Origin: a bacterium
GTDB lineage: Bacteria; Patescibacteriota; Andersenbacteria; UBA10190; CAIZMI01
Direction of reading: 5' to 3'
NCBI GenBank assembly: GCA_030647555.1
Contig: JAUSJG010000013.1
Coordinates: 12,086 to 76,085, forward strand
Length of the DNA: 64,000 bases
The notes below the pieces were generated by a model that was given only the letters and a program-made list of their open reading frames with translations, ran no database searches and had not been told where the DNA came from. How positions within the stretch are numbered: position 1 is the first letter of the stretch; every line of letters begins with the position of its first letter. The position numbers were made by a program, and so were the translations under genes. Below are positions 3,374-59,725 of this stretch, piece by piece.

Positions 3374-3405
3374 GAACTGGTCGTTCTGAAAATAAAGTTA
3401 GCGAA

Positions 3406-3444
3406 ATCAGTGACCGACCCCGGCGTGCGGGGACGGTCCCTGAT
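3406..3444. repeat. Palindromic element family 2 (GACCGTCCC type): atcagtgaccgaccccggcgtgcggggacggtccctgat
   Basis: Identical copy at 7389-7427; related copies 21361-21398, 38601-38639, 48678-48715, 59907-59944. Confidence 0.75.
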
Positions 3445-3550
3445 TTGTCGGATGCACCATTGACTTTTGTCTGTTTTGGGGGTAGGTTGGACGTAAGAAG
3501 CAACCGAAAACTTCCTGAAAGGGTTGTGGCCGAAAGGTCTAGGTTGCTTT

Positions 3551-4852: not shown

Positions 4853-4878
4853 CCGCGTCATCGAGACGCGGTTTTTTT
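4853..4878 (+). terminator. Intrinsic terminator ccgcgtcatcgagacgcgg + T7
   Basis: Hairpin and T-run immediately after stop of 4255-4845. Confidence 0.55.
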
Positions 4879-4880
4879 AT

Positions 4881-4932
4881 TTTTCTCATCAGAGAAAAAT
4901 AATCCCCCATAGCTCATCAGCGCGCGCGGGTG
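4881..4932. repeat. Variable palindrome (ttttctcatcagagaaaa) + degenerate 34-bp CAT element (aatcccccatagctcatcag...)
   Basis: Same architecture as 7322-7374, 28296-28351, 38001-38056, 48569-48623. Confidence 0.55.
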
Positions 4933-5006
4933 TTTATTAGGAGTCTCCATAAAAGGAAACACCCAATAAACACGAATCGTTCCCACGTGGGTGACGAAAA
5001 ATTTAT

Positions 5007-5081: not shown

Positions 5082-5669
5082 ATGTGTGACGAAAATAATG
5101 AACTCGTTGATCTTGTCCGTTCGATTGCTTCTCCGACCTTGTCACACGAGGCGATCGTGGCTTTGCGTGAATCGGGTATGCTCGATCAACTTTTATTAGC
5201 AGCCAAAAGGAGTCCAGGACGGTTGTCTTTACCACTCGTTCAGCATGAGTTAAGGACGGTGCTGGGGTTTCGTCCAGTAATTGACTGTGACGCGATGTTG
5301 GAATTTGAGGGTTACGAATATCGTAAGGATGATCAGCCCTTGAACAGAATTCGCCACAAGATTTTTTGGGACCCGTTCGCGTTTAGCCGTTACGTTTTTT
5401 CCAGCGTGAAGCTTTGCGACAAGGTGGCCGAAATTCAGGATCTGGTACCGGCGCATGTGTTGCGATTTCTAGTTGATAATCCCGACCAGATGCCGGAGGA
5501 GTATGCATTCTCTGATTTGTTTTTCTGGACGCCGTTGCGAAGTCTGCTGGAAGGGGAACTGTATGTACCCGGTTTGCAACAAGGGAAGTTGTGCTTCCAA
5601 AAGATTGTGGACGCGCAAGGTGCGGTCTTGGTGCCTGCTCGAGCCAGCGATTTGATAGTGGCGTATTAG
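5082..5669 (+). CDS. Hypothetical protein (start at MCDENNELV, RBS gaagagagg)
   Basis: ORF with RBS; followed by terminator repeat; no recognisable domain. Confidence 0.5.
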   Translation: MCDENNELVDLVRSIASPTLSHEAIVALRESGMLDQLLLAAKRSPGRLSLPLVQHELRTVLGFRPVIDCDAMLEFEGYEYRKDDQPLNRIRHKIFWDPFAFSRYVFSSVKLCDKVAEIQDLVPAHVLRFLVDNPDQMPEEYAFSDLFFWTPLRSLLEGELYVPGLQQGKLCFQKIVDAQGAVLVPARASDLIVAY

Positions 5670-5702: not shown

Positions 5703-5727
5703 ATTCGAGAAATTTGTACGCGCAATT

Positions 5728-5945
5728 TGTATCGATATGTCGATACAAAAGAACACTGATTGTTTGTTTTTACTGATTTTTAAAAATCCAACCTTGCTCT
5801 TGTATCGATATATCGATACACAAACAGGCAAAGGCGATATATTTTTTTGCGTTAATTAAATCATGTTGCGCCTGTATCGATATATCGATACACAGATGTT
5901 TGTATTGTTGTAAACGAGTTGCTCTTGTATCGATATGTCGATACA
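5728..5945. promoter_or_regulatory. Four copies of 20-bp palindrome TGTATCGAYATRTCGATACA (5728-5747, 5801-5820, 5873-5892, 5926-5945), each in a promoter-like context (ttgcNc-palindrome-tacaNN)
   Basis: Exact palindromes seen directly; last copy abuts start codon of the TrpR-like gene. Confidence 0.6.
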
Positions 5946-5953
5946 ATTGAGGC

Positions 5954-6364
5954 ATGGCAAAAGTAAAAACGCAAAAATTTACAGCGGAAGAAAAAGAAAA
6001 GTTTGTGAAAAATCTTGGTGCGACAATTCTGAAATATGATAAACCAGATAAAATGGAAAAGTTTTTGCGTGATTTTCTTACGCCAAGTGAAATTATTATG
6101 TTGGCAAGAAGAATCCAAATTGCCGATGGCCTTATAAAAGGAAAAGGGTACCGCGAATTGCACGAAAAATACGGGATTGGAATGAGTACAGTTCAGCTGG
6201 TTGATAAGTGGTTGAGGGTGACAGTTGAAGATTACAAATACGCGCCACCTGGAAAACGCGACAAGAAGCAGAAGAAAACACGTGGCTATTCAAGACGTAG
6301 CGGTATCCAGCTTTTTCTTTCTTATTCAACTGGTCCCAATCCGTATTTTATTTGGCAAAGCTAA
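5954..6364 (+). CDS. TrpR-like YerC/YecD family DNA-binding protein
   Basis: EIIMLARRIQIADGLIKGKGYRELHEKYGIGMSTVQLV matches TrpR_YerC/YecD HTH region. Confidence 0.7.
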   Translation: MAKVKTQKFTAEEKEKFVKNLGATILKYDKPDKMEKFLRDFLTPSEIIMLARRIQIADGLIKGKGYRELHEKYGIGMSTVQLVDKWLRVTVEDYKYAPPGKRDKKQKKTRGYSRRSGIQLFLSYSTGPNPYFIWQS

Positions 6365-6366
6365 TT

Positions 6367-6432
6367 TGTATCGACATATCGATACAAGTCACCGTGTTGG
6401 TTGATATTTTTATGTATCGACATATCGATACA
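6367..6432. promoter_or_regulatory. Two more copies of TGTATCGACATATCGATACA (6367-6386, 6413-6432) downstream of TrpR-like gene
   Basis: Exact palindromes seen directly. Confidence 0.6.
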
Positions 6433-6477
6433 TCATTGCGTGATGCGGTTGAGTGAATTTTTTTAAACTAAAACTTG

Positions 6478-6524
6478 TTGACACAATATTATAATAATGC
6501 TTAAATGAACCGTTGTTCTTTGTC
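6478..6524 (+). promoter_or_regulatory. Conserved promoter-leader module: TTGACA-17-TTAAAT-gaac-cgttgttctttgtc
   Basis: Hexamers with 17-nt spacer; homologous to 4178-4225. Confidence 0.5.
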
Positions 6525-6644
6525 ATTTTTGCCAAGCGTTTGGCTGGACTTTGAACAACATTAACGTCTTTTTCGTCGGTCGTACGTCGAGCCGGGCCCT
6601 GCAAGCGAGGGTTTTTCTCTGACCAGACCGCGAACGGGAGGTGT

Positions 6645-7274
6645 GTGATGGGACATGCGAACGCGGGAACAGATTTTACGATTGATCAAGTCATGGCTAT
6701 TCGGGAGATGGAGAGAAAGTTAGCGCGACAAGGATTTCGCGGTGCTCGAAAAGAGGTTCAAGATGCTTTCGAAGTGTTGCATTACCGTATTAAGGCGTTG
6801 AAAAAACACCGCTTGGTGGATTGTTCTAAGGGGGCGTCTATCCCTGATGGATGTTTGATTCTTGAAGAAGATCAGTTACCGGGAAGAAAGAAAGACGAGA
6901 TGATCCTGAGTGTTCGTTTTATGGAGCTTTGGATTCCGGAAGCCAGGATGCCGGGAATATACAGCAGAGCCGCATTGCTTGAGGAGCTTCAACAAAATGA
7001 ATCAGCGGTACTTCCGTTGAGCGTTCTCGATCACGATCTTCTTTGGCAGCACGGGATTTTCTACGGGCTCATTCCCGATCAAGGTAGCATCTTATTCTGG
7101 GGTACGATCTTTCGCGATGTAAATGGGATTCCAACAGTAAAAGGGTTGTCTCGAAAGCGAGCGGACATTTATCTGCGAGATTTCCCCATCGACAGCTTGC
7201 GGAGTACTGTGCCACAGCGCGAATATGTTGCGCTTTATGTCAACGCTCCAATGATTGACACCGGTGTCTGGTAA
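6645..7274 (+). CDS. Hypothetical protein, FWGT-motif family (paralog of 20738-21304)
   Basis: Shared segment LL..I...LIP....(I/V)(L/F)FWGT..R...G with 20738 protein; atypical codon usage. Confidence 0.5.
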   Translation: MMGHANAGTDFTIDQVMAIREMERKLARQGFRGARKEVQDAFEVLHYRIKALKKHRLVDCSKGASIPDGCLILEEDQLPGRKKDEMILSVRFMELWIPEARMPGIYSRAALLEELQQNESAVLPLSVLDHDLLWQHGIFYGLIPDQGSILFWGTIFRDVNGIPTVKGLSRKRADIYLRDFPIDSLRSTVPQREYVALYVNAPMIDTGVW

Positions 7275-7295: not shown

Positions 7296-7322
7296 CTCCA
7301 CGGAATCCCGTGGAGTTTTTTT
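7296..7322 (+). terminator. Intrinsic terminator ctccacggaatcccgtggag + T7
   Basis: Hairpin and T-run after stop. Confidence 0.55.
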
Positions 7323-7374
7323 GTTTTCGCGCGCTCGCGAAAACAATCCCCCATAGTCTTGGTGAAGGGGGATG
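7322..7374. repeat. Variable palindrome gttttcgcgcgctcgcgaaaac + CAT-element variant aatcccccatagtcttggtgaagggggatg
   Basis: Architecture shared with four other sites. Confidence 0.55.
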
Positions 7375-7388
7375 ATTTATTTTTTTAA

Positions 7389-7427
7389 ATCAGTGACCGA
7401 CCCCGGCGTGCGGGGACGGTCCCTGAT
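7389..7427. repeat. Palindromic element family 2, identical to 3406-3444
   Basis: Exact repeat. Confidence 0.75.
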
Positions 7428-7473
7428 TTGTTCGCGTATTCCTATTTCATCAATCATCATTCATAATCACCTT

Positions 7474-11460: not shown

Positions 11461-11748
11461 ATGACTGACGAGATTAAAAACATATCGGCGCAGATAACGC
11501 CGTTGCTAAAAAATGCCGGGGTAATTCGGTCGGCGATTTTTGGTTCTCGCGCAACAGGGAATGTTTACAAGGATAGTGATTTGGATTTGTTGGTGGAATT
11601 TGGCTCAAAAAAAACTCTCTTGGATTTGTCTTCATTAAAAAGAAATTTGGAAGCGAAACTAAATATGTCGGTGGATTTGCTGACCTTTCGTTCGCTTAAT
11701 TCTCGATTGCGAAAAAAAGTCGAAAAAGAAGCGGTAGATATATTGTAA
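11461..11748 (+). CDS. Nucleotidyltransferase (MNT-type antitoxin)
   Basis: FGSRATGNVYKDSDLDLLV Pol-beta NTase motif. Confidence 0.75.
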   Translation: MTDEIKNISAQITPLLKNAGVIRSAIFGSRATGNVYKDSDLDLLVEFGSKKTLLDLSSLKRNLEAKLNMSVDLLTFRSLNSRLRKKVEKEAVDIL

Positions 11749-11749
11749 G

Positions 11750-12082
11750 ATGGCAAAGGATATACAAATTCTCCTTGGTTATATCTTGGACAGTGTTGAG
11801 GAATTGGAAAAACATGTGACTGATTTGAGTCACGAAGATTTTTTGCAATCAACACTTGTACAAGACGCAGTGATGCGTCGGTTGGAAATTATCGGCGAAG
11901 CGGTTAATAATCTTCCGGATAAATTAAAAGCAGATAATTCTGAAATTCCATGGCGCGATATAGCGGACATGCGCAATCTGCTGATTCACGAATATTTTGG
12001 CGTCGATATTGAGTTAGTCTGGGAAACCGTTCAAAAAGACATTCCACCGCTAAAGAAAAAGATTCAAGAACTGCAAAAATAG
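11750..12082 (+). CDS. HepT-like HEPN (DUF86) toxin
   Basis: RNLLIHEYFGVDIELVW Rx4HxY motif; 1-nt gap from MNT gene. Confidence 0.75.
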   Translation: MAKDIQILLGYILDSVEELEKHVTDLSHEDFLQSTLVQDAVMRRLEIIGEAVNNLPDKLKADNSEIPWRDIADMRNLLIHEYFGVDIELVWETVQKDIPPLKKKIQELQK

Positions 12083-12672: not shown

Positions 12673-13053
12673 CTCAAAGCATCTATTCCCGGGATACTTG
12701 TCCACACCTGTTGACAGGATTTCAGGGTTGATTTATAAAGATAGCAGTGTTTCAAGATCTTGGGGTGTCCACTATAGAATCTCGCATAAAATAGCCCGCG
12801 AAAATTAAAATATGCGGTGCTGGTGTATCTTTGTTGACGTTTTTCGTTAAATATGATGAACTGTCAGGAAAGATATCCACAATCTGCGGGTTCTTATTTA
12901 CACCACCAAAATCTTCAAGATTTCCTCTCCCGAGGTTCTCCTAAGTCTTGTACAAAATAATAAGTGGCAAAATCCTCAAAGCAAAAACTAGAAGATCGAA
13001 AAGAACACCATAAGAAATGGCAGGTTTCTTCGTCACCAGTAGATTCGGGAAAC

Positions 13054-16000
13054 ATGATGTCCCGCAAGTTTTTCACGAAGACCTATGATGTCGCGTCCGC
13101 CCCCCAACTGATTGAAACGCAACTCAATTCATATCGTTGGTTTTTGGAAGCGGGTTTGCCGGAACTGTTTGAAGAATTTAATCCAATCGAAGCGCACGCC
13201 GGTGCGATGTCTTTGGAATTTTTGGACTACTATTTGGATGAACCGAAACATACGGAAAAAACTTCCAAGGATCGCAACTCTACATTGGAAGCGCCAATTC
13301 GCGTGGCGGTGCGTTTGACCAATAAAAAGACCGGTGAAGTAAAAGAACAAGAAGTTTATCTCGGAGAATTTCCGGTGATGACCAATCGCGGTACTTTTAT
13401 TGTAAATGGTGTCGAACGTGTCGTAGTTTCACAATTAATACGCTCTCCGGGCGTATTTTTTACCTCTAATTTTACGCGCGGTCGTAATTGGTATGGCGCG
13501 AAAGTGATCCCAAATCGCGGGGCTTGGTTGGAAATTGAAACCGGCGCGGATGGCGTGTTGTATGTAAAAATTGATCGCCGTCGCAAAGTGGTGGCGACTG
13601 CTTTGATGCGCGCGTTTGGTTATGGTGATGATGATTCAATTCGTAATGCTTTAAAAGAAACCGACACCGATCCGGACATGTCGTTTGTGGATGCGTCGTT
13701 GGCGAAAGATCCTTCCCACAACGAAGCGGAAGGTTTGAAAGAAGTTTATAAGAAGATTCGTCCGGGTGATTTGGCCACCACTGATAATGCCCGTCAAATG
13801 GTGGAAGATATGTTCTTCCGTTTCGACCGTTACGATTTTGGACGTGTCGGTCGTTACAGAATGAATAATCGTTTGGGTTTGAATTTTTCCGAAGCGCAAG
13901 AAACTCGCACGCTCCAAAAAGAAGATTTGGTGGCGATCTTGAAAGAAGTGATTCGTTTGAACGTGACGCAAGAAATTGCCGATGATATCGATCATTTGGG
14001 CAATCGTCGCGTGCGCGCTGTAGGCGAATTGATTCAAAACAAATTCCGTGTTGGACTCCAGCGCATGAAGCGTATCGCGCAAGACCGTATGAGTACGATG
14101 GATCCAAACACCGTTACACCTTCTCAACTGATCAATGCTCGTCCGATTATTGCGGCAATTAAGGAGTTCTTCACGAGCTCGCAGTTGTCACAGTTCATGG
14201 ATCAAACCAACCCATTGTCCGAATTGGAACATAAGCGTCGTTTGTCCGCGATGGGTCCCGGTGGTTTGGCTCGCGAACGCGCCGGTTTTGAAGTTCGTGA
14301 CGTCCACTATTCTCACTACGGTCGTATTTGTCCAATTGAAACTCCAGAAGGTCCAAACATTGGTTTGGTCGGTCACATGGCCTCGTTTGCCCGCGTGAAT
14401 GATTATGGTTTCTTAGAAACCCCGTACCAAAAAGTTTCTCACGTTTTGCCACTCGACAAAGCGGAAGGGGAAGAGGCTTGGGTTGATATTGTTAGCAAAG
14501 ACGAAAAAGTAATTATCCCAGGGAGGACGAAAATTACCGCCGTCCATATCAAAGCTTTGGAAACGGCAGGAATGACTGATGTTCGCGTGAAACCACGGGT
14601 TACGAAAGAAGTTGAATATATTGATGCTAACAAAGAAGATCGCACAGCGATCGCGCACGCCGCCGAACCGGTTGGTGCCGATGGTCACTTTGTAAACGAT
14701 CGCGTGGAAGCGCGTGATCATGGACAATTTAGAGAAGTGGCCATCGATAAAGTTGATTACGTTGATATTTCCGCGATCCAACCAATTTCCGTCGCTTCCG
14801 CTTTGATTCCGTTTATTGAACACGATGATGCCCAGCGCGCACTCATGGGATCAAACATGCAACGTCAGGCTGTGTCTTGTATCAAACCAAGTTCTCCTGT
14901 TGTTGGTACCGGTATGGAACGTCGCGCGGCTTTTGATTCCGGTCACGTGGTAATCTGTCAGGCCGATGGCACAGTCGCCGAAGTGGACGGCGCTCACATT
15001 AGCGTTTTAGAAGATGGTGGTAATGTTCGCACCTATCCTTTGCAGGCTTTTGTAAGATCAAATACGTCCACCTCGATGACCCAACACCCGCGAATTAACA
15101 AGGGTGACAAAGTTAAGCGTGGTGACGCATTAGCCGACGGTGCTTCAATTGAGGGCGGAGAATTGGCCTTAGGTCAAAACCTATTGGTGGCGCTTGTGCC
15201 GTGGCGTGGTGGTAATTTCGAAGATGCCATCTTGATTTCCAGTCGCGTTGTTGAAGATGATTGGTTTACCTCTATTCACATTGAAGATTTTACGATTGAA
15301 GTGCGCGACACAAAACTCGGTCCGGAAGTGGTAACGCGCGATATTCCAAACGTCGGTGAAGAAAAACTCCGCAATTTGGATGAAGACGGCATTATCCGCA
15401 TCGGCGCGGAAGTGTCTTCCGGTGATATCTTGGTCGGCAAAATTACGCCAAAGGGTGAAACCGATTTGACGGCCGAAGAAAGATTGTTAAGAGCCATCTT
15501 CGGCGAAAAAGCACGCGACGTGAAAGACACTTCTCTCTACTTGCAACACGGTGAACACGGCAAAGTCGTTGGCATTAGAATTTTCGATCGCGACAAGGGT
15601 GACAAATTGCCATCCGGCGCCATTCAACAAGTGCAGGTAAGCGTCGCGCAACTCCGCAAATTACAGGTCGGTGACAAGTTGGCCGGTCGTCACGGAAACA
15701 AGGGTGTTATTTCTCGCATTGTGCCGGAAGAAGATATGCCGTATCTCGAAGACGGTACGCCGGTTGATATTGTTTTGAATCCGATGGGTGTGGCTTCCCG
15801 TATGAATCTCGGTCAGATTTTGGAAACCCACTTGGGTTGGGCCGCGCAGAAACTCGGCTACAAGGTCGCATCGCCTCCGTTTAACGGTGTTTCGGAAGAA
15901 ATTATCAAGCAAGAATTGGTCAAAGCCGGGTTACCGGAAAGTGGACAGGTTAAGTTAATGGACGGCGTAACCGGCGAACCTTTTGATCGTCCGGTCACGG

Positions 16001-16449
16001 TCGGTATTATGTACATCTTGAAACTGCATCATTTGGTGGAAGATAAGATTCATATGCGTTCCACCGGTCCGTACTCGTTGGTTACACAACAGCCGTTGGG
16101 TGGTAAAGCACAGAGCGGTGGTCAGCGTTTTGGAGAAATGGAAGTGTGGGCACTCGAAGCTTATGGTGCCGCTTACACCCTGCAAGAAATGTTGACGATT
16201 AAATCTGATGACGTGTTAGGTCGTTCCCGAACATACGAAGCAATCGTGAAGGGTGAAGAAATTCGTCCACCAAATATTCCCGCTTCCTTTGATGTATTGG
16301 TGCGTGAATTGAAAGGTTTGGCACTGGATGTTGAAATCGAAACCAGCACGCCAGCCGTAAAAGAAAGTGACAACGATGTTGATGGTGAAGGGGACGCGCG
16401 GACAAAAACGCCGACCCGCACCATTCGCACCGATAACTCAGGCGAATAA
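13054..16449 (+). CDS. rpoB: DNA-directed RNA polymerase subunit beta
   Basis: Full-length RpoB conservation (N-terminal MMSRKFFTKTYDV...QLNSY; catalytic regions); start moved to 13054 from ORF-track 12964. Confidence 0.97.
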   Translation: MMSRKFFTKTYDVASAPQLIETQLNSYRWFLEAGLPELFEEFNPIEAHAGAMSLEFLDYYLDEPKHTEKTSKDRNSTLEAPIRVAVRLTNKKTGEVKEQEVYLGEFPVMTNRGTFIVNGVERVVVSQLIRSPGVFFTSNFTRGRNWYGAKVIPNRGAWLEIETGADGVLYVKIDRRRKVVATALMRAFGYGDDDSIRNALKETDTDPDMSFVDASLAKDPSHNEAEGLKEVYKKIRPGDLATTDNARQMVEDMFFRFDRYDFGRVGRYRMNNRLGLNFSEAQETRTLQKEDLVAILKEVIRLNVTQEIADDIDHLGNRRVRAVGELIQNKFRVGLQRMKRIAQDRMSTMDPNTVTPSQLINARPIIAAIKEFFTSSQLSQFMDQTNPLSELEHKRRLSAMGPGGLARERAGFEVRDVHYSHYGRICPIETPEGPNIGLVGHMASFARVNDYGFLETPYQKVSHVLPLDKAEGEEAWVDIVSKDEKVIIPGRTKITAVHIKALETAGMTDVRVKPRVTKEVEYIDANKEDRTAIAHAAEPVGADGHFVNDRVEARDHGQFREVAIDKVDYVDISAIQPISVASALIPFIEHDDAQRALMGSNMQRQAVSCIKPSSPVVGTGMERRAAFDSGHVVICQADGTVAEVDGAHISVLEDGGNVRTYPLQAFVRSNTSTSMTQHPRINKGDKVKRGDALADGASIEGGELALGQNLLVALVPWRGGNFEDAILISSRVVEDDWFTSIHIEDFTIEVRDTKLGPEVVTRDIPNVGEEKLRNLDEDGIIRIGAEVSSGDILVGKITPKGETDLTAEERLLRAIFGEKARDVKDTSLYLQHGEHGKVVGIRIFDRDKGDKLPSGAIQQVQVSVAQLRKLQVGDKLAGRHGNKGVISRIVPEEDMPYLEDGTPVDIVLNPMGVASRMNLGQILETHLGWAAQKLGYKVASPPFNGVSEEIIKQELVKAGLPESGQVKLMDGVTGEPFDRPVTVGIMYILKLHHLVEDKIHMRSTGPYSLVTQQPLGGKAQSGGQRFGEMEVWALEAYGAAYTLQEMLTIKSDDVLGRSRTYEAIVKGEEIRPPNIPASFDVLVRELKGLALDVEIETSTPAVKESDNDVDGEGDARTKTPTRTIRTDNSGE

Positions 16450-16478: not shown

Positions 16479-19400
16479 ATGGCCCAATTTCAAGAACAAG
16501 AAGCGTTGGATTTCGAGGCGGTAAAGCTTAAGCTTGCCAGCCCGGAAGTTATGCACGAGTGGTCCCACGGCGAAGTTACCAAGCCGGAAACCATTAATTA
16601 TCGCACGCAAAAACCGGAACGCGATGGCTTGTTTGATGAACGCATTTTTGGGCCGGTAAAAGACTGGGAATGTTATTGCGGTAAATATCGTCGCATTCGT
16701 TACAAGGGAATTATTTGTGACAAATGTGGTGTTGAAGTTACTCGTTCCATTGTTCGTCGTGAGCGCATGGGTCACATTGATTTGGCCTCTCCTGTTGCTC
16801 ACATCTGGTTCTTGCGCGGTATTCCGTCTAAGGTTGGTTTGCTTTTGGATATTAATGTTCAACAATTGGAAAAAGTTGTTTATTTTGCTTCTTATATTAT
16901 CACCTCCGTTGATGAAGACGCTCGTAAGGAAATTGGCAATCGCATCGAACGGGAAATTAAGACCAAGCGTGAAGAAGTAACCAGAGTTTACAAACAATCC
17001 GAAGACGTTATTCGTCAAACTGCGGCTACGAAATTGAAAGATATTTCCGACGAAAAAATTCGCAAAGAAACCGAAACGAAACTGGATAAAGAATTGAAAG
17101 CGAAAGAACTGGAACGCGAAGAAGAACTGCAAAAACTCGAAAAAGCCGGTCAACGGGCGCGTGAAGAATTAAGCGTGTTAAAGCCGTTGCAAATTGTTTC
17201 CGAAGTGGAATATCGCAGTTTATCGATGAAATACGGCCATGTTTTCTCCGCCGGTATCGGTGCCGAAGTGTTGCGTCAAATTTGTGAACATATTGATCTT
17301 GGAAAATTGGCCAAACAATTGGAAGGCGATTTGGCGGACGCCGGTGCGGCCAAGCGCAAGCGCGCGGTAAAACGTTTGTCTTTGGTGCGCAGTTTCTCTC
17401 GTGGCAAAATTCGTCCCGAATGGATGTTCTTAACGGCAATCCCTGTTATCCCACCGGATTTGCGCCCAATGGTGCAGTTGGATGGTGGTCGTTTTGCCGC
17501 CTCCGATTTGAATGATTTGTATCGTCGCGTAATCAACCGCAATAATCGCTTGCGTCGCCTTATTGAGATGGGTGCGCCGGAAGTAATTATGCGCAATGAA
17601 AAGCGTATGCTTCAGGAAGCGGTTGATGCTTTGATTGATAACAATGCGCGTCGCGGTTCAACCACCGCCGCCGCCGTTGGTCAACGTCGTCAATTAAAGT
17701 CATTGGCCGATATGTTGAAAGGTAAACAAGGTCGTTTCCGTCAGAACCTGCTTGGAAAGCGTGTTGATTATTCCGGTCGTTCCGTCATTGTTGTCGGTCC
17801 GCACTTGCGTTTGCATCAATGTGGTTTGCCGAAATTAATGGCACTCGAGCTTTTCAAACCGTTTGTTATTCATGAATTGGTAAAGCGCGGATTGGCGCAC
17901 AATATTCGTTCGGCATCGCGTCTTATCGAACAGGGAATTCCGGAAGTGTGGGATTCACTGGAAGACGTGACGCGAACACACAAAGTAATGTTGAATCGTG
18001 CGCCAACCTTGCATCGCCTGGGTATTCAGGCTTTCCAGCCGGTTTTGATTGAAGGTAAAGCCATTCAGATTCATCCGATGGTTTGTCCGCCATTCAATGC
18101 TGATTTCGACGGTGATCAAATGGCCGTGCACGTTCCGCTTTCTACTCCGGCGCGAAAAGAAGCGAACGACATTATGTTGGCTTCCAAGAACTTACTTAAG
18201 CCGTCCGATGGTGAGCCGGTAACAGGCGCTTCACAGGACGTGGTTTTGGGTCTCTACTATGGTTCCCGTATTTCCGATGGCGCGAAAGGCGAAGGTCATG
18301 TGTTTGGTTCTCCGGCCGAAGCAATTTTCTCTTACGATTCCAATTATATTGCCATTAACGCCAAAATTAAGGTTCGTTTGAATGCCAAGAGCAATGAATT
18401 AACCGAAACAACTGCCGGTAGAATTTTGTTTAACGAAATTTTGCCAAAAGGTGCCGAGTTTGTGAATGAAGTATTCGACAAGAAGCGTCTCAAAGCATTG
18501 TTGGGTGAAATTCTTGCCACTTTCGGTACCGAGCAAGCCGCCGAGTTTATCGATCGGATGAAAGATCTTGGCTTTAGTTTTGCCACTCGTTCCGGTTCTT
18601 CTTGGGGAATGAACGATTTGCACACGCCGGAAGGCAAGCACGCCATTATCGAAAGTTCGGAAAAAGAAATTGAACAGATTCGTGAACAATTTGAAACAGG
18701 TTTGCTTACCGACGAAGAACGCTATGTAAAGACCATTGAAATTTGGGAAAGTGCCAAGAATAAAATTACCGAATTGGTGCAAAAATCTTTACAGCCCTCC
18801 CAGAGTGTTTATCAGATGGTGTTCTCCGGCGCCCGTGGATCAGTTGGTCAGGTTACGCAGATGATGGGTATGAAAGGTTTGGTTATTTCTCCTACCGGTC
18901 GTACCAACGAATTGCCAATCAAGTCTTCCTTCAAAGAAGGGTTTAACGTTTTGGAGTATTTCACCAGTACGCACGGCACTCGCAAAGGTATGGCTGATAC
19001 CGCGCTTCGTACCGCAACGGCCGGCTACCTTACTCGTCGCTTGGTAAACGTCGCCCAGGATATCGTGATTCGTGAAAAGGATTGTGGTGATACGGTTGGT
19101 CGCATCATTTCCAAGAAACATTCTCAAGATATGGGCACAACTTTACTTCGCAGAATTCGCGGTCGTTTCGTCGCCAAAGACGTTGTAGATGAAAAAACCG
19201 GGGAAGTGTTGGTAAAAAAAGGCACACTTATCAACCGTGAACAGGCCAAACAGATTGATGCCGCTTCTGTTCCTGAAGTAATCATTCGTTCCGTCTTATC
19301 CTGCAAAACGCTCCGTGGTATTTGTCAAAAATGTTATGGCTGGGATTTGGGTTCCAACGCGATGATCAATATGGGTGAGGCCGCCGGTATTGTGGCCGCG

Positions 19401-20354
19401 CAAGCCATCGGTGAACCGGGCACTCAGCTGACAATGAGAACTTTTCACCATGGTGGTGTGTCGGGTGGCACGGATATCACGCAAGGTTTACCGCGTGTCG
19501 AAGAATTGTTTGAGGCACGCGCGCCGAAAAACAAAGCTTTGGTTTCGGAAATCGGTGGAACGGTCACTTTGTCCGAACGCGAAGGCCAACCGTTGATTTC
19601 GGTTCTTTCGCAATCTGCCGGACAAGAAATCTATGACCGCGCGGGACTCATTATCGACAAAAATATTGAAGACGGCATGGAAATTGAACCGAACCAACGC
19701 TTATTTATGGATATGGAAGGTGAAGAAGTATTCTCACGTCGTAAGGGTTTGATTCATCTCACGGATAAACAGTTGAAGGTGCAGGGAACAGAAGCGGACG
19801 CCCGTGAATATCCGGTCCCGCCGGATATGGCCGTTTGGGTAAAGACTGGCGACGTCGTGTCTCTTGGTCAACAACTTACCGAAGGTCACGTCAATGTCCA
19901 GGAGCTCTACAAAATTGCCGGCGCCGGCGCCGTGCAACATTACATCATCAAAGAAGTTATGGACGTGTACGCTATTCAAGGTGAAGCCATCAACGACAAG
20001 CACTTGGAAATTATGGTGCGTCAGATGATGTCGCGTGTTCGCGTCAAAGACGGTGGTGAAACAACTCTACTCCCTGGTCGTGTTTATGAACTTGCCGATT
20101 TTATTGAAGAAAACAATCGCGTTACCAAAGAAGATAGCCGTCCGGCAATTGGTGAAAGATTGTTGCTTGGTATCACTAAAGTTTCGTTGACCACCGCGTC
20201 ATTCCTCGCCTCCGCCTCCTTCCAAGAAACCGCCCGTGTCTTAATCGACGCCGCCGTGACCGGTCGTGAAGATCGTTTAGTGGGTCTAAAAGAAAACGTC
20301 ATCATCGGCAAATTAATCCCGGTCGGAACAGGGTATAAGGGCAAAAAAGATTAG
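16479..20354 (+). CDS. rpoC: DNA-directed RNA polymerase subunit beta'
   Basis: Zn-finger [35 protein letters not shown] catalytic motif. Confidence 0.97.
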
Positions 20355-20409: not shown

Positions 20410-20540
20410 CAAAAATCCCAATGACCAAACCCCAATGTCCAACAAAAACCCAATTATCAAAATTCCAAAGTTGCGATTTTTTTTGGTTATTAAAATTTTT
20501 GAATTTTGTTGGGCATTGGTCATTGGGGTTTGGGATTTTG
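20410..20540. repeat. Long hairpin element (tcccaatgaccaaaccccaatgtccaacaaaa ... ttttgttgggcattggtcattggggtttggga); family copies 24997-25125, 32453-32605, 53893-54027, 57531-57660
   Basis: Inverted arms ~32 bp; same arm sequence after rpoC, ftsK, ychF, uvrC, uvrA. Confidence 0.65.
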
Positions 20541-20622: not shown

Positions 20623-20666
20623 TTGACAAAAACTTGTTTTGGGAGTATAATCGCCTGTTCTGTGTC
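20623..20666 (+). promoter_or_regulatory. Consensus sigma70-type promoter TTGACA-17-TATAAT + leader motif cgcctgttctgtgtc
   Basis: Perfect hexamers with 17-nt spacer read directly. Confidence 0.55.
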
Positions 20667-20737: not shown

Positions 20738-21304
20738 ATGACTACAAAATCCGAATTCAGTGTTCTCGGTTTGGCTCACAAGTTTTTCACAGCGGCCGAA
20801 GAGAGAGGGTTCAATAAGGCCAAGATCAATGCGCTCGCGGAAAACCCCACGATGTTGCAGAATTGCTATGACCTTTTCATTGGACAAGCGAGGATCGTTT
20901 ACATCGTGGATCTCGACGCCTATCCATTCATGCCAGATGGCTGGGAACTTCTCGAGCATCACAAGGGTGGCCAGTTCGAATTTGAGCCGGCGAAGATTGC
21001 GCTGTTTCTCTCCGAGGATCAGAAGGGAGACAGGCAGATCAGAGGGTACGATTTGGGTAATGAGCTTAGAGTTCACGCGGGCTTTAACGCCAACCTGCTT
21101 GATTTCTTGATTGCTCACCCCCTCTTGATTCCGAAAGACTGGAACGGTAAGACTGTCTTCTTCTGGGGTACACACTACCGCAACGCCGATGGCGTGTGCG
21201 TTCGTTATCTCGACTGGGGTGGCGAGTCCTGGATCTGGAACTACTACTATCTTGCGGACGACTTGACTTGCGAGGAACCCGCCGCCGTCCCCGCCCAACC
21301 TTGA
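20738..21304 (+). CDS. Hypothetical protein, FWGT-motif family (paralog of 6645-7274); atypical codon usage
   Basis: Shared motif with 6645 protein; AGA/AGG, CTC, GAG-rich codons unlike rpoBC. Confidence 0.55.
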   Translation: MTTKSEFSVLGLAHKFFTAAEERGFNKAKINALAENPTMLQNCYDLFIGQARIVYIVDLDAYPFMPDGWELLEHHKGGQFEFEPAKIALFLSEDQKGDRQIRGYDLGNELRVHAGFNANLLDFLIAHPLLIPKDWNGKTVFFWGTHYRNADGVCVRYLDWGGESWIWNYYYLADDLTCEEPAAVPAQP

Positions 21305-21325: not shown

Positions 21326-21361
21326 ACGCCTCGTGCTTTGTTGCACGAGGCGTTTTTTTTA
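21326..21361 (+). terminator. Intrinsic terminator acgcctcgtgctttgttgcacgaggcgt + T9
   Basis: Hairpin and T-run. Confidence 0.6.
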
Positions 21362-21475: not shown

Positions 21476-21700
21476 ATGGAATTCAGACAATCGCTCTTTT
21501 GGGACACCGATCCCAAGAAAATTGATCCGCAAAAACACGCGCAATACATCATTGAGCGCGTGGCGGATTTTGGTAACGATAAAGAAGCGCGTTGGGTCTT
21601 GGATTTTTATGACAAACCGCTGCTTCAAAACATTATTTCTAAATCGCGCTGTTTAAGGCCGCGCACAAAAAAATTATGGACGCTTTTGGTCAACAGATAG
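21476..21700 (+). CDS. Small protein (MEFRQSLFWDTDPKKIDPQKH...), putative partner/antitoxin of the downstream AbiEii-family gene; overlaps it by 25 nt
   Basis: ORF directly after promoter; overlap suggests coupling. Confidence 0.4.
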   Translation: MEFRQSLFWDTDPKKIDPQKHAQYIIERVADFGNDKEARWVLDFYDKPLLQNIISKSRCLRPRTKKLWTLLVNR

Positions 21701-22347
21701 TTTGGCAATACCAAACACTGCCTGCTAACACAAAAAAAGCGTTAGATTTTTTGTCCGCGGAAAATTGGTTGGAAAAAACCGATTGGTATTTGGCAGGAGG
21801 CACAGCCTTGGCATTGCAGGCGGGGAATCGAAAATCTTTCGATTTAGATTTTTTTACTGTTCAAAAAGATTTTGATGGTAAAAAACTGCTTGCCAATTTT
21901 TTGGGTAATGATAATTGGAAGACAGATATTGAAGATACAAATACGATCTATGGGCAATTATTTGGGGCTAAAGTAAGTTTTATTGCTTACCCGTTTTTTA
22001 TCCCAAAGCAAAGGTTTATTCAACATGGTTCTGTGTGCGTGCTTGATAAGACTGACGTTGCGGTGATGAAAATAACGGCCATTTCTCAACGGGGCAGGAA
22101 GAGAGATTTTTTTGATTTATATTGGTGCGCGACAAACATCGAATCATTGGAAAACATCGTTAAACGGCTTAAAGAACAATATCCGTTTATTGCGCATAAT
22201 TATCACCACATTCTTAAAAGTCTAGTGTATTTTGACGATGCGGAAGGCGATCCCGAACCGGAGGTTTATTTTGATGCCACATGGGAAAAAGTTAAAGAAT
22301 ATTTTACAAAAGAAGTTCCGTCGATTGTCGACAAGATAGTGAATTAA
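21676..22347 (+). CDS. Nucleotidyltransferase AbiEii/AbiGii toxin-family protein
   Basis: WYLAGGTALALQAGNRKSFDLDFF motif typical of AbiEii NTases. Confidence 0.65.
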   Translation: MDAFGQQIVWQYQTLPANTKKALDFLSAENWLEKTDWYLAGGTALALQAGNRKSFDLDFFTVQKDFDGKKLLANFLGNDNWKTDIEDTNTIYGQLFGAKVSFIAYPFFIPKQRFIQHGSVCVLDKTDVAVMKITAISQRGRKRDFFDLYWCATNIESLENIVKRLKEQYPFIAHNYHHILKSLVYFDDAEGDPEPEVYFDATWEKVKEYFTKEVPSIVDKIVN

Positions 22348-24996: not shown

Positions 24997-25125
24997 TGGT
25001 TATTAAACCCCAAATCCCAATGACCAATGTCCAACAAAACCATAATTACTAAAATCCCAAAACGCGTATTTGGTCATTAGTATTTTGGAATTTTGTTGGA
25101 CATTGGGGTTTGGGATTTGGGGTTT
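24997..25125. repeat. cccaatgaccaa-family long hairpin after ftsK
   Basis: Arm sequence shared with 20410-20540. Confidence 0.6.
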
Positions 25126-26349: not shown

Positions 26350-28218
26350 ATGGCCAGCTTTACGCTTCTGGCACTCGTTGTTTCTGTGCTCGGTGTTTTG
26401 CCGCTTTTGGCGGCCAAACGCCTGCAAGCAGCTGGTGTAATGGCGTCGGTCGCGTTTGTTGCGATTCTGCCGATGCTCGCACTTGCTGTTCCATCGCTGG
26501 TTTGGCCTTGGTGGGGCATGCCAGGAATTCTGGTTGTCTTGCTTTGGGTGATTTGTCCGGTTATTGACATCCTTATCAGTAACAGTGACCAACCGGATGA
26601 ACCAATAAAGATTCGGACAGCACCGCTATACATGACGGCCGTGCTCGTTTCTGTGATGGTGCTCAGTGGTTTTCGCGGTTGCACCGCGTTTACGGCTGGC
26701 GAGTACGCCAACCTGATCGGTGACGTGGATGAAAAGGTTTGGAATCAAGATATCCAGCCGAAAGATCCTCGTCACATCAGGATGGCGTCATTGGAAAATG
26801 CAATTGCCCTGGCCGAACAACAGCTTGGCAAAGGCGGAGCCATCGGGAGCCAGTTTCAGTTGTTGAAAAGTGGAGCTACGGCGCAATTCGTCAACGGGAA
26901 GTTTGTGACGGTTGTGCCGTTGGACTATGCCAGTTTTTCGGCATGGAGTTCCTCAAAAGGCGTTCCCGGGTACGTTGTCGTTGACAACGAAGATCCGCGC
27001 GCCGAAGCTAGTCTGGTTATGTTGCCGGACGAAAAGAAGTTCGTCTACACCCCCAGTGCTTATTGGGGTTACAACCTCGAGCGGCACTTGTGGTGGAACG
27101 GCTTCGCGACGAAAGGATTGGACGATTTCACGTTGGAGATCGACGACTCTGGCAAACCCTGGTGGACGGTGACGGTTTTTGAACCGACCATTTACTGTTG
27201 GGGCGAAAAGATGACTGGTGTGGTTGCCGTTGATCCGGTCAGCGGTGTGACCGAATTCTATCCGGTCGGAAAGATTCCCGATTGGGTGGACAGTGCGATG
27301 CCACGCAAGTTTGCGAAGTCGTACGTTGATTTCCGCGGGAAGTATTCGCTCGGTTGGATCAACGCCGACATTTGGGGTCACAAGGACTTAACCAAGGCCG
27401 ATGGTTACCCGTTGTTAGTGTTTGGTTCAGATGGGGTGCCCTACTTTGTGGTCAGCGTCACGTCGGTAAATGACAAAGACGCGTCGCAAGTGGGTTTGTA
27501 TTACTTTAATACTCGCACTGGAAAGGCGACGTACTACAAGGCCAGCGGAAGTACCGAGTCGGCAGTCGTGAATGCCGTTAATAAGAACGAACAGGTGCAG
27601 TTTAAGCACCTGCACGGCAGTGTTCCGCAGATCTACAACATCTACGGGACGATGTGCTCGGTGGTGCCATTACTGAACGAGAGTCATCTCTTCCAAGGGG
27701 TGGCAATCGTGGATGTCGCGAACATCCAGGTGATGGGAATTGGCAAGGATCAATTTGAAGCCTTGCGGGCATTTCAGAAAGCGTTGCCCGTTTCCGGTCG
27801 GCAAGTGGCGCCGGAACTTTCTCGGAAAGTGGAAACGCTGGAAGGGAAAGTGTCGCGCGTTGCGGTGATTAACCAAAATGGCGACGCGACGTTCTACATG
27901 GTTCTGGAAAGCGTCCCGCATCTGTTCACTTGCGGTATCTCACTCTGTCCCGAAAAGTTGCCCGTTACGGAAGTAGGCGACACGGTACGGATTGAGTATT
28001 ACGGTTCTGGCGAACGGATTGAACCACTGCATGCCTTCGACAACACGTCGTTGAAAATCGAAGGAACAGACAGTGAAAAGGAGGTTCGCGAAGCTGGCGC
28101 GGATGTGCTGGACAAGGCCGCGGTTGTGCAAGAGAAGGCCACAACGCGGACCAAAGTCGGTGAACTCTCTGACGAGGAGGTTCAAACGATCTTGTCCAAA
28201 CGAAACGCGGGTAAGTAA
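26350..28218 (+). CDS. Large hypothetical membrane-anchored protein (3 N-terminal TM helices + ~500 aa extracytoplasmic domain); higher GC than neighbours
   Basis: Hydrophobic N-terminus; no recognised domain. Confidence 0.5.
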   Translation: MASFTLLALVVSVLGVLPLLAAKRLQAAGVMASVAFVAILPMLALAVPSLVWPWWGMPGILVVLLWVICPVIDILISNSDQPDEPIKIRTAPLYMTAVLVSVMVLSGFRGCTAFTAGEYANLIGDVDEKVWNQDIQPKDPRHIRMASLENAIALAEQQLGKGGAIGSQFQLLKSGATAQFVNGKFVTVVPLDYASFSAWSSSKGVPGYVVVDNEDPRAEASLVMLPDEKKFVYTPSAYWGYNLERHLWWNGFATKGLDDFTLEIDDSGKPWWTVTVFEPTIYCWGEKMTGVVAVDPVSGVTEFYPVGKIPDWVDSAMPRKFAKSYVDFRGKYSLGWINADIWGHKDLTKADGYPLLVFGSDGVPYFVVSVTSVNDKDASQVGLYYFNTRTGKATYYKASGSTESAVVNAVNKNEQVQFKHLHGSVPQIYNIYGTMCSVVPLLNESHLFQGVAIVDVANIQVMGIGKDQFEALRAFQKALPVSGRQVAPELSRKVETLEGKVSRVAVINQNGDATFYMVLESVPHLFTCGISLCPEKLPVTEVGDTVRIEYYGSGERIEPLHAFDNTSLKIEGTDSEKEVREAGADVLDKAAVVQEKATTRTKVGELSDEEVQTILSKRNAGK

Positions 28219-28259: not shown

Positions 28260-28295
28260 TCCCCGGGTCCAGCAATGGATCCCGGGGATTTTTTT
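28260..28295 (+). terminator. Intrinsic terminator tccccgggtccagcaatggatcccgggga + T7
   Basis: Hairpin and T-run. Confidence 0.6.
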
Positions 28296-28351
28296 GTTGC
28301 CCATCGCAATGGACAACAATCCCCCATAGCTCATCAGAGCGACGGGGGATG
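28296..28351. repeat. Variable palindrome gttgcccatcgcaatggacaac + canonical 34-bp CAT element aatcccccatagctcatcagagcgacgggggatg
   Basis: CAT element identical to 38023-38056. Confidence 0.65.
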
Positions 28352-28519
28352 TGTCAATTAACAAAGCTTTAGCGAAGTGGGGGGTGTTTTCTGAAATTTA
28401 GTACATTTTTTTCATGCGATTGTCGTTTCAGTTTTTCTATAACAAGATAGAAAAACTGAAACGAGTAGGTGTAAAGAAGTTTTAAAATATATTAGGGATT
28501 CTCCTGATTGGAAGTTGTA

Positions 28520-28924
28520 TTACCGTGCATATGTGGAGATAATTTTTTTGTTCAGTTTTCTTTCCATTTCAAAAAAGGGGGCGTAGTTGTGATAAATCTT
28601 GAACGCATTTAGTTTAAATTTTAATAAATCCCGCCTGTCGCCATAGAGCAGGATTGGATTTTTGCTTACTTGGAACGACAAAAGCGGATTGGCTTTGTTT
28701 AAAATTGTTAGATCGACTTCTTTGTTGAAGATTGCGGAAAGTTCATTGATTAAATCAACATGTTCCTTAAAAAAAACGTCTTTCATGCCTAAAACGGCAA
28801 TGTCTAAATCGCTGTCCTTTCTTTGTTTTCCAGTCGCAAAAGAACCAAAAACAACCACCAATTTCAGTTGAAATTTTTTGGTGAGTTCAGTGATCTTCGT
28901 TTTTTGATCTTGGGTCGTTTCCAT
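28520..28924 (-). CDS. Nucleotidyltransferase (MNT-type), no adjacent HEPN partner
   Basis: FGSFATGKQRKDSDLDIAV motif. Confidence 0.65.
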   Translation of the reverse strand: METTQDQKTKITELTKKFQLKLVVVFGSFATGKQRKDSDLDIAVLGMKDVFFKEHVDLINELSAIFNKEVDLTILNKANPLLSFQVSKNPILLYGDRRDLLKFKLNAFKIYHNYAPFFEMERKLNKKIISTYAR

Positions 28925-47439: not shown

Positions 47440-47443
47440 TATA

Positions 47444-59703: not shown

Positions 59704-59725
59704 GTTGGTCAAGTGGGGTAGAGTC

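What the first reader, a model, noticed from the sequence alone, without database searches (positions are those of the whole stretch)
6645..7274. Fast-evolving paralogous protein family (FWGT motif) carried by the cassettes
The proteins from 6645-7274 and 20738-21304 share a C-terminal block:
...HDLLWQHGIFYGLIPDQGSILFWGTIFRDVNGIPTV...
...ANLLDFLIAHPLLIPKDWNGKTVFFWGTHYRNADGVCV...
The rest of the two proteins is dissimilar. Weaker echoes of the motif occur in 4255 (CFWTGEKTAKNVYYGI), 48032 (KGWTGEWDAVRI) and 5082 (KIFWDPFAFSRY).

These genes have higher GC and different codon choice from the host backbone (AGA/AGG Arg, CTC, GAG, TTC). Divergent paralogs with a shared promoter, scattered and locally arrayed, are typical of immunity, effector or other conflict-system proteins.
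Basis: partly seen in the sequence, partly recalled or inferred. Interest (0 to 1): 0.6.

Follow-up and report, generated by a model that had tools for sequence, protein, structure and literature searches.

The report
Orphan copies of DGR variable-protein family
The "FWGT" proteins belong to a family that many Patescibacteria (CPR) bacteria hypermutate with a diversity-generating retroelement (DGR), but this window holds only one intact copy and two diverged copies, with no mutator next to them, so this is a known kind of system.

Summary
The similarity is real but narrower than claimed. Three genes are homologous: 20738-21304, 6645-7274 and 5082-5669. Profile E-values against the 20738 family are 5e-7 to 1e-10. 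The genes at 4255 and 47951 are unrelated (probability below 1%).

The 20738 protein belongs to a family of about 190 aa found in Patescibacteria. It has more than 188 database homologues and 361 hits in species genomes, and no Pfam, NCBIfam or PDB sequence match.

In 26 of 54 informative homologous loci, a DGR lies just downstream. It consists of a 120-nt template repeat that differs from the gene's 3' end almost only at template adenines, plus a bAvd accessory gene and a reverse transcriptase (RT). FFWGT is scaffold directly upstream of the variable repeat. The family's variable columns match the adenine-containing template codons. The AlphaFold model (pLDDT 94) weakly resembles C-type lectin domains.

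The window contains no RT, Avd or template. So 20738 is an intact orphan copy. 6645 and 5082 have lost the Trp-rich variable scaffold. 6645 belongs to a small subfamily under purifying selection (dN/dS 0.16).

I found no toxin or secretion genes among the ORFs scanned.

The parts
20738..21304 (+). Intact full-length member (188 aa) of the Patescibacteria DGR variable-protein family. It is an orphan copy, with no RT, Avd or template repeat in the window.
   Evidence: More than 188 homologues at 40-58% identity. HMM score 241 bits over profile positions 1-191. 19 of 22 scaffold residues kept. AlphaFold2 pLDDT 93.9.
21158..21172 (+). FFWGT motif. This is invariant scaffold directly 5' of the variable-repeat region.
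   Evidence: F141, W143, G144 and T145 are invariant in A1. Coordinates. TR/VR homology in relatives starts at the following 'YR' codons.
21176..21301 (+). Region equivalent to the variable repeat (VR), including a GC-rich 3' end that resembles the 3' end of the TR/VR homology in relatives.
   Evidence: Template repeats from L005 and L003 match only here in the window (21169-21294, 64-67% identity, E about 1e-10 to 1e-11). No second copy exists in the window.
20623..20666 (+). Consensus sigma-70 type promoter (TTGACA-N17-TATAAT) plus the shared start motif CTGTTCTGTGTC. It leaves a leader of about 86 nt.
   Evidence: (D12/D15).
21326..21360 (+). GC-rich hairpin followed by a T-run (terminator-like), immediately after the VR and stop codon.
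   Evidence: Read directly from the sequence. Function inferred.
6645..7274 (+). Diverged paralogue (NCBI call 6648-7274, 208 aa). It keeps the N-terminal helices, the fold core and FWGT, but the Trp-rich VR scaffold is replaced by a different C-terminus. It belongs to a subfamily of 4 known sequences.
   Evidence: 8 of 22 VR scaffold residues kept. Subfamily dN/dS 0.16. AlphaFold2 pLDDT 63.7 with the same order of secondary-structure elements.
7095..7106 (+). FWGT motif of the 6645 protein.
   Evidence: Aligned to the family FFWGT.
5082..5669 (+). Second diverged paralogue (195 aa). Homology runs nearly full length, the VR region is shortened, and the C-terminal '..VLVPARAS' echoes the family's 'PAAVRAS'.
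   Evidence: HMM E=3.1e-6. hhalign 95.5% probability, E=1.5e-8, 140 columns. Alignment A2. The gene was called with this start in Logan contig L088.
5520..5531 (+). FFWT, the degenerate equivalent of FWGT in the 5082 protein.
6478..6647 (+). Promoter and 5' leader of about 150 nt for the 6645 gene. It is far more conserved than the coding sequence.
   Evidence: 84-92% nucleotide identity to L090 and L092, against 35-40% amino-acid identity in the coding sequence with synonymous sites saturated. No Rfam match.

Best explanation
The FWGT proteins are members of a Patescibacteria-specific family of small cytoplasmic-looking proteins. They have no signal peptide or transmembrane segment visible in the sequence. 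Each has an N-terminal three-helix module followed by a domain that is probably C-type-lectin-like.

In many genomes these proteins are the variable (target) protein of a diversity-generating retroelement (DGR). The steps below are established DGR biology and were not tested here:
- A template repeat (TR) about 350 nt downstream of the gene is transcribed.
- The adjacent DGR reverse transcriptase (RT), together with the Avd accessory protein, copies it with misincorporation opposite adenines.
- The cDNA replaces the last ~120 nt of the gene, the variable repeat (VR).
- About 20 codons on an invariant Trp/Leu/Gly scaffold are thereby randomised, and binding specificity changes.

FFWGT-YR is the last invariant scaffold element before the VR.

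In this window:
- 20738-21304 is an intact family member with its own strong promoter and terminator, but no DGR machinery within 64 kb. It is either a remote target of a DGR elsewhere in the genome or a copy that is no longer diversified. I cannot tell which.
- 6645-7274 and 5082-5669 are old paralogues that lost the VR scaffold. They are most likely fixed-specificity binding proteins.
- The 6645 type is still a functional gene under purifying selection.
For: Shown by tool results:
1. Homology of the three window proteins to the family.
2. TR/VR pairs in relatives. L005: VR 6443-6565 against TR 6899-7021, 84% identity, 20 of 20 mismatches at TR adenines. L003: 22 of 23. The same pattern holds in L012, L015, L020, L029, L031, L041, L044 and others.
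3. DGR genes beside the family gene. bAvd (PF22296) and RVT_1 lie next to the gene in L005, and RVT_1 in L003. Both RTs carry LGNLTSQ and YADD, the DGR-RT signature as I know it from the literature.
4. Frequency of linkage. Of 54 species-genome loci with at least 3 kb downstream, 26 have an RT, Avd or adenine-biased TR.
5. Position of variability. The family's variable columns (x in YRxSDGxLxVRxLxWxGxxWxWxxxWLxxxWxxxxPAA) coincide with the adenine-containing codons of the L005 TR.
7. The window has no RT or Avd (tblastn; Pfam) and no TR.
8. Orphan copies keep the scaffold as well as DGR-linked ones do (20.2 against 20.6 of 22 residues). The window copy keeps 19 of 22.
9. The 6645 subfamily has dN/dS 0.16.

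Literature:
- CPR DGRs form a cellular clade. Their targets lack recognisable domains (PMC8144416).
- VR classes of unknown fold were reported in the CPR set (PMC5758913).
Against: - No DGR component was found in the window, so DGR action on the window's own gene is not shown.
- I could not read the other ~59 kb of the 122,775-bp contig or the rest of the MAG.
- The model of the 6645 protein has low confidence (pLDDT 63.7).
- Two conserved Trp positions of the VR scaffold are substituted in 20738 (Y and L).
- About half of the family loci have no DGR nearby, so the family may also have DGR-independent roles.
Confidence: 0.85

Rival explanations
1. 20738-21304 is an active remote target. A DGR (RT, Avd and TR) elsewhere in the same genome diversifies it in trans, so this genome does have a working hypermutation system acting on the window.
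For: - The VR scaffold is largely intact (19 of 22 residues) and the GC-rich 3' end is present.
- Orphan copies as a class are as well conserved as DGR-linked ones, which fits continued use.
- Remote targets are known, and surveys that rely on proximity miss them (PMC8144416).
- The gene has a consensus promoter.
Against: - No TR, RT or Avd occurs in 64 kb.
- In all 26 DGR-linked family loci, every TR detected lay within the ~8-kb flank held; in the loci read in detail (L005, L003) it lies about 350 nt downstream of the VR.
- The gene's GC3 and Arg codon usage are foreign to the backbone. That could mean a recent arrival without its DGR.
Confidence: 0.35
2. The proteins are immunity or effector components of a polymorphic-toxin or secretion-linked conflict system. 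Their divergence would then come from an ordinary arms race, not a retroelement.
For: - Several toxin-antitoxin-type genes lie in the window: MNT/HepT pairs, a DUF3800 gene and nucleotidyltransferases.
- The 6645 coding sequence has diverged far more than its flanks.
Against: - No toxin, secretion, Rhs, VgrG or CdiA-like family was detected in any of the 30 window ORFs scanned.
- In homologous loci, RT and Avd were the only recurrent neighbours found; they were the only ones systematically searched for.
- Variability in the family is confined to the positions a DGR template would mutate.
Confidence: 0.05
3. 6645-7274 and 5082-5669 are decaying pseudogene-like relics of former DGR targets and have no present function.
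For: - Both have lost the VR scaffold (8 of 22 residues for 6645).
- 6645 has only 3 close relatives among 1.84 billion representative proteins and 5.8 billion clusters.
- No independent homologue search was run for 5082 alone.
Against: - The ORFs are intact and have a ribosome-binding site and promoter.
- The 6645-type gene is conserved in at least 3 other metagenome contigs, with dN/dS 0.16 between L090 and L092.
- Its leader and operator-containing upstream region are strongly conserved.
Confidence: 0.1
4. The FWGT similarity is a chance short motif between unrelated proteins.
For: Pairwise BLASTP gives only E=0.06. Two of the five claimed echoes are indeed chance.
Against: Profile E-values run from 5e-7 to 1e-10 over more than 100 aligned columns. 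P0122 and the 'DQLPxR' subgroup are intermediates that link 6645 to canonical members.
Confidence: 0.01

Closest known systems
Target proteins of DGRs in the Candidate Phyla Radiation (Patescibacteria): DGR clade 2 of Roux et al. 2021 (PMC8144416) and the 'CPR set' with VR classes UVR1-6 of Wu et al. 2018 (PMC5758913)
   Same: - Same host phylum.
- Cellular rather than viral (361 genome loci against 4 viral contigs).
- Small proteins with no signal peptide, transmembrane segment or database domain.
- VR at the C-terminus, and the TR, avd and RT immediately downstream.
   Different: - I could not check whether this exact family is one of the published UVR clusters, because no supplementary files are held.
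- The window copies lack the retroelement, and two of them lack the VR scaffold.
C-type-lectin-fold DGR variable proteins with solved structures: Mtd of Bordetella phage BPP-1 (1yu0), TvpA of Treponema denticola (2y3c), and the archaeal and Thermus variable proteins (PMC5006420, PMC6328139)
   Same: - Variable residues sit in the last ~40 codons on an invariant scaffold.
- Diversification occurs at template adenines.
   Different: - No detectable sequence similarity (no PDB sequence hit at E up to 1).
- The proteins are much smaller (about 190 aa), carry a different N-terminal three-helix module, and show no FGE-sulfatase or DUF1566 Pfam signature.
Remote or orphan DGR targets (VR-bearing genes not adjacent to the RT), as described for several DGRs and noted as undetected by proximity-based surveys (PMC8144416)
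   Same: 20738-21304 has a VR-like 3' end but no TR or RT within 64 kb. In this respect it resembles 28 of 54 informative family loci.
   Different: Being a remote target requires a matching TR somewhere in the genome. That could not be examined.

Membership tests
DGR variable (target) protein family: homologues of the window proteins | The 3' variable repeat is paired with a nearby template repeat whose mismatches lie almost only at template adenines. | tested here: met
   - L005: 20 of 20 mismatches at TR adenines. L003: 22 of 23. L029: 21 of 21. L031: 23 of 23. L041: 24 of 24. L044: 22 of 22.
- 25 of 54 loci with at least 3 kb downstream have such a TR.
DGR variable (target) protein family: homologues of the window proteins | Adjacent DGR-type reverse transcriptase and Avd accessory gene. 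| tested here: met
   - RVT_1 and bAvd (PF22296) are called beside the gene in L005, and RVT_1 in L003.
- By tblastn, 21 of the 54 informative loci have an RT and 23 have an Avd.
- The RTs carry LGNLTSQ and YADD.
DGR variable (target) protein family: homologues of the window proteins | Hypervariable protein columns coincide with adenine-containing template codons on an invariant scaffold. | tested here: met
   The consensus '...YRxSDGxLxVRxLxWxGxxWxWxxxWLxxxWxxxxPAA' was compared with the L005 TR codons AAC, TAC, GAC and AGG at exactly the x positions.
DGR variable (target) protein family: homologues of the window proteins | C-type lectin fold of the VR-bearing domain. | tested here: inconclusive
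   - The model has pLDDT 93.9.
- The best Foldseek E-value is 0.056.
- Nothing significant in BFVD.
Active DGR target: the window gene 20738-21304 itself | A cognate TR, RT and Avd in the same genome. | tested here: not met
   - Within the 64-kb window there is no TR, no RT or Avd by tblastn, and no RVT_1 among the scanned ORFs.
- The rest of the contig and genome could not be read, so a remote DGR is not excluded.
Active DGR target: the window gene 20738-21304 itself | Population-level variation confined to adenine-templated codons of the VR. | not testable with these tools
   This needs read mapping from the source metagenome (for example SRR13727527, the sample that carries the same sequence).
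Active DGR target: the window gene 20738-21304 itself | IMH-like GC-rich 3' end of the VR and a downstream hairpin. | tested here: inconclusive
   A GC-rich end (CCCGCCGCCGTCCCCGCCCAA) and a 11-bp hairpin 21 nt after the stop codon are visible. The hairpin is also a plain terminator, and no IMH/IMH* pair can be defined without the TR.
DGR variable protein family: the window genes 6645-7274 and 5082-5669 | Homology to the family scaffold. | tested here: met
   HMM E=5.4e-7 and 3.1e-6. hhalign 94-97% probability.
DGR variable protein family: the window genes 6645-7274 and 5082-5669 | Presence of a VR (Trp-rich scaffold plus PAAxRAS end) that a TR could replace. | tested here: not met
   - 6645 keeps 8 of 22 scaffold residues and has a different C-terminus shared with P0125, P0126 and L092.
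- 5082 has a shortened region.
- There is no TR-like copy of either 3' end in the window.
   Pfam and NCBIfam scans of the candidates and neighbours found none. Neighbourhoods of homologues show housekeeping genes or DGR genes. The PADLOC library was not searched.

The most novel reading that the evidence does not exclude
The 6645-type subfamily may be a former DGR target that was fixed as a constant C-type-lectin-like binding protein and placed under dedicated control.
- A Trp-repressor-like regulator (5954-6364) sits next to it, with six copies of a 20-bp palindrome.
- The gene has a 5' leader of about 150 nt that is 84-92% identical between sequences whose coding regions are saturated at synonymous sites.

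The leader would then be an undescribed cis-regulatory RNA, or a recombination handle that allows whole-allele replacement between conserved flanks. Either would be a DGR-independent route to diversity.
Probability: 0.15. Interest if true: 0.55.

Novelty: new member of a known kind. Interest (0 to 1): 0.3.

Why it matters
- It assigns a mechanism-linked identity to genes annotated only as 'hypothetical'. The family has no Pfam or NCBIfam model, yet it is widespread in Patescibacteria.
- Roughly half of its members sit without a retroelement, and these orphans keep the variable-region scaffold as well as the linked ones do. This bears on an open question in the DGR literature: what the small, domain-less CPR targets do, and whether they are diversified in trans.
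- For this window the result is mainly a clarification. The fast-evolving family is explained by known biology.

Tried and rejected
- Pfam and NCBIfam scans of the five candidate proteins and three GC-rich neighbours gave no hits. A PDB sequence search with the family profile gave no hits.
- 4255/4300 and 47951 as family members: rejected. 4300 has a single homologue. 36622-37935 gave a weak BLASTP echo to 6645 (E=0.027), but hhalign rejects it.
- Search for a TR, RT or Avd in the window: none found.
- Extending beyond the window with exact-protein look-ups failed. Only short Logan contigs of SRR13727527 hold these genes.
- Context of the 6645-type relatives P0125 and P0122: the contigs are under 1 kb.
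- Leader as a known RNA: no Rfam match at gathering threshold or at E up to 1. The exact 25-mer is absent from JGI metagenome contigs. The promoter-plus-start pattern found one true orthologue (L092) and one chance hit (L093). Three sequences are too few for covariation.
- The shared start motif TGTTCTnTGTC is not a family feature in other genomes.
- The afdb50 fold library was unavailable. BFVD gave nothing significant.
- The supplementary files of Wu et al. are not held, so I could not match this family to their UVR classes.

Full report
**Source of the window.** The window comes from a Patescibacteria (CPR) metagenome-assembled genome. The two focal ORFs are NCBI hypothetical proteins Q7S57_03605 (6648-7274) and Q7S57_03655 (20738-21304) on a contig of 122,775 bp. 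Housekeeping genes surround them:
- uvrB at 496-2850;
- ruvA ending at 8055;
- rpoB at 12964-16449;
- rpoC at 16479-20354;
- recA at 29058-30131;
- groEL at 61808-63469.

- The 20738 protein has more than 188 homologues of about 190 aa at 40-58% identity. All are unnamed and without Pfam domains, and those that carry an organism name are from Patescibacteria.
- An HMM of 120 of these homologues was searched with all filters off against every six-frame ORF of the window (818 ORFs).
  - It recovers the 6645 ORF at E=5.4e-7 and the 5040/5082 ORF at E=3.1e-6.
  - Nothing else scores below E=2.
- Profile-profile comparisons agree:
  - A1 against 6645 gives 94.2% probability and E=1.1e-7 over 104 columns.
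  - A1 against 5082 gives 95.5% probability and E=1.5e-8 over 140 columns.
- The proteins at 4255, 47951 and 36622 give probabilities below 1%.

- The similarity covers most of the protein, not only a C-terminal block.
The true FWGT equivalent there is FFWT at 5520-5531.

**What the family is.** Neither Pfam, NCBIfam nor PDB sequences match it. Genomic context gave the answer.
- In locus L005 the family gene (6001-6570) is followed by a 123-nt copy of its own 3' end, 84% identical. A bAvd gene (PF22296) and an RVT_1 reverse transcriptase come next.
- All 20 mismatches between the two copies lie at adenines of the downstream copy.
- L003 shows the same arrangement, with 22 of 23 mismatches at adenines.
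- This is the defining signature of a diversity-generating retroelement (DGR). The downstream copy is the template repeat (TR) and the gene's 3' end is the variable repeat (VR).
- Both RTs carry LGNLTSQ and YADD, which I recognise as the DGR-RT signature from the literature.

I then scanned one genome per GTDB species.
- 361 stretches encode a relative, and 80 loci were kept.
- Of the 54 loci with at least 3 kb downstream of the gene, 26 have DGR parts nearby: 25 an adenine-biased TR, 21 an RT and 23 an Avd.
- The family is essentially cellular. Only 4 loci turned up in 2.9 million viral contigs.

**Where FWGT sits.**
- TR/VR homology begins at the 'YR' codons directly after FFWGT.
- The family consensus is FFWGTIYRxSDGxLxVRxLxWxGxxWxWxxxWLxxxWxxxxPAAxRAS.
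- Its x positions are exactly the adenine-containing codons (AAC, TAC, GAC, AGG) of the L005 template.
- FWGT is therefore the last invariant scaffold element. The fast-evolving part is the ~40 codons after it.

**Fold.** AlphaFold2 with the 49-sequence alignment gives pLDDT 93.9: three N-terminal helices, then a mixed alpha/beta domain.
- The hit lists consist overwhelmingly of C-type lectin-like domains:
  - the Bd2740 C-terminal domain, CD72, intimin/invasin and many animal C-type lectin domains;
  - an FGE paralogue and the Lcl C-terminal domain.
- BFVD gave nothing significant.
- I take the C-type lectin fold as likely but not demonstrated.

**Literature.**
- Roux et al. describe a DGR clade that is cellular and restricted to Patescibacteria. 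[quoted passage not shown] Their approach misses remote targets (PMC8144416).
- Wu et al. list 126 CPR DGRs with VR clusters UVR1-6 of unknown fold (PMC5758913).
- This family therefore belongs to a known kind. I could not check whether it equals one of their clusters.

**Status of the window copies.**
- The window has no RT or Avd (tblastn with the L005 and L003 proteins; Pfam).
- It has no TR. The VR region of 20738 matches nothing else in the window, and foreign TRs match only 21169-21294.
- I could not read the rest of the contig.
- 20738-21304 is full length. It keeps 19 of 22 VR-scaffold residues and has a consensus promoter and terminator.
- As a class, orphan copies keep the scaffold as well as DGR-linked ones do (20.2 against 20.6 of 22). 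They are therefore not simply decaying.
- Whether 20738 is diversified in trans remains open.
- Its composition is foreign to the backbone (GC3 0.65, AGR/Arg 0.71, against GC3 0.40-0.49 and AGR 0.05-0.24).

- The word-indexed search found only itself and one weak hit.
- An exhaustive phmmer search of 1.84 billion representatives found 10 hits:
  - two close relatives, P0125 (41% identity) and P0126 (38%);
  - canonical VR-bearing members of a 'DQLPxR' subgroup;
  - P0128, with three tandem copies of the domain.
- A metagenome pattern scan added a fourth subfamily member, L092.
- The subfamily shares a C-terminus unlike the VR scaffold (alignment A5). As a profile it matches the main family at 97% probability, E=1e-10.
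- Between L090 and L092 dN/dS is 0.16, so the gene is functional.
- The AlphaFold2 model has low confidence (pLDDT 63.7) but the same order of secondary-structure elements as 20738.
- 6645 and 5082 are best described as old paralogues of the DGR target family that lost the diversifiable region.

**Is 6645 fast-evolving?**
- Against L090 and L092 its coding sequence is 39-40% identical in protein, with synonymous sites saturated.
- The promoter and 5' leader (about 6499-6600) are 84-92% identical to those contigs. The operator-bearing upstream stretch (6400-6498) is 80-88% identical to L092, but only 34-38% to L090. The 3' hairpin element is about 70% identical to L092.
- The leader is far more constrained than the protein. 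It matches nothing in Rfam, and three sequences are too few to test covariation.

'Fast-evolving, conflict-type' is right in spirit, because DGR targets are hypervariable binding proteins. The mechanism, however, is a known retroelement and not a polymorphic-toxin or secretion system, and none of the ORFs scanned matched a toxin or secretion family.
- The 'cassette' link is partial.
  - The promoter/start motif is shared by 4255, 6645 and 20738.
  - Only 6645, and the unrelated genes 4255, 26350, 36622 and 47951, carry the 3' AATCCCCCATAG element.

**Verdict.** This is a new member of a known kind, of modest interest. The most interesting loose end is the ultra-conserved leader and regulator module of the 6645 subfamily.

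Noticed in passing
window 6478-6647 (also L090:39-221 and L092:782-964 on the minus strand): The 5' leader of the 6645 gene is 84-92% identical to those of two metagenome orthologues, while the coding sequences are 39-40% identical in protein with synonymous sites saturated. A predicted first stem-loop is GTTGTTC...GAACAAC. There is no Rfam match. It is a candidate cis-regulatory RNA or DNA element.
   Followed up: partly
window 5721-6434 and gene 5954-6364: Six copies of a 20-bp palindrome, TGTATCGATAT(A/G)TCGATACA, flank a Trp-repressor-like gene (PF01371, E=7e-12). Two of them lie just upstream of the 6645 promoter, and the same palindrome precedes the orthologous promoter in L092. This looks like an operator set for a local regulator.
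   Followed up: partly
window 3404-3448 and 7387-7431: Two 100% identical 45-nt imperfect palindromes (AAATCAGTGACCGACCCCGGCGTGCGGGGACGGTCCCTGATTTGT) bracket a 4-kb block holding the DUF3800 gene, the 4255 orphan, 5082, the TrpR-like gene and 6645. The Logan contig L088 breaks at these repeats. More diverged copies lie at 21358, 38599, 48676 and 59904. This could mark island boundaries or be a REP-like element.
   Followed up: no
window 4870-4935, 7316-7356, 28287-28352, 37992-38057, 48559-48624; also the 3' ends of L090 and L092: A shared 3' module follows unrelated orphan genes: a T-run, a hairpin of variable sequence, then AATCCCCCATAGCTCATCAGAGCGACGGGGGAT (a 7-bp stem with a loop resembling a tRNA D-arm). 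Their nature is unexplained.
   Followed up: no
window 36622-37935, 26350-28218, 58789-59703: Three GC-rich ORFs (GC 0.61, 0.53 and 0.58; GC3 0.62-0.76, against about 0.45 in the backbone) have no Pfam or NCBIfam match. Two of them sit behind near-consensus promoters with the same extended sequence (D12/D15).
   Followed up: no
window 11461-12082, 46975-47890, 28520-28924, 34221-34583, 59658-60848: There are several MNT-type nucleotidyltransferase (Polbeta/NTP_transf_2) genes and one HepT gene, that is, toxin-antitoxin modules. 21676-22347 contains a 'DFFDLYW' stretch that reminded me of the AbiEii nucleotidyltransferase toxin type (from memory, not checked), but it has no family hit.
   Followed up: partly
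window 20413-20538, 25005-25125, 32453-32549, 57529-57652: Long A/C-rich and G/T-rich inverted-repeat elements (AAATCCCAATGACCAAACCCCAATGTCCAACAAAA and its complement) follow large genes such as rpoC. They form a genome-specific family of hairpin repeats.
   Followed up: no
P0128 (481 aa); L003/L078 and L036, L070: Some genomes carry three tandem copies of the domain in one protein, or two to three adjacent family genes, of which one or two match the local template repeat with adenine-only mismatches. The family therefore expands locally.
   Followed up: partly
loci L019, L025, L033, L034 and others: Many contigs that carry this Patescibacteria-type gene are titled 'uncultured Gammaproteobacteria', 'Alphaproteobacteria', 'Methylocapsa' or 'Micavibrio' MAGs. 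This probably reflects mislabelled or contaminated bins, not true hosts.
   Followed up: no
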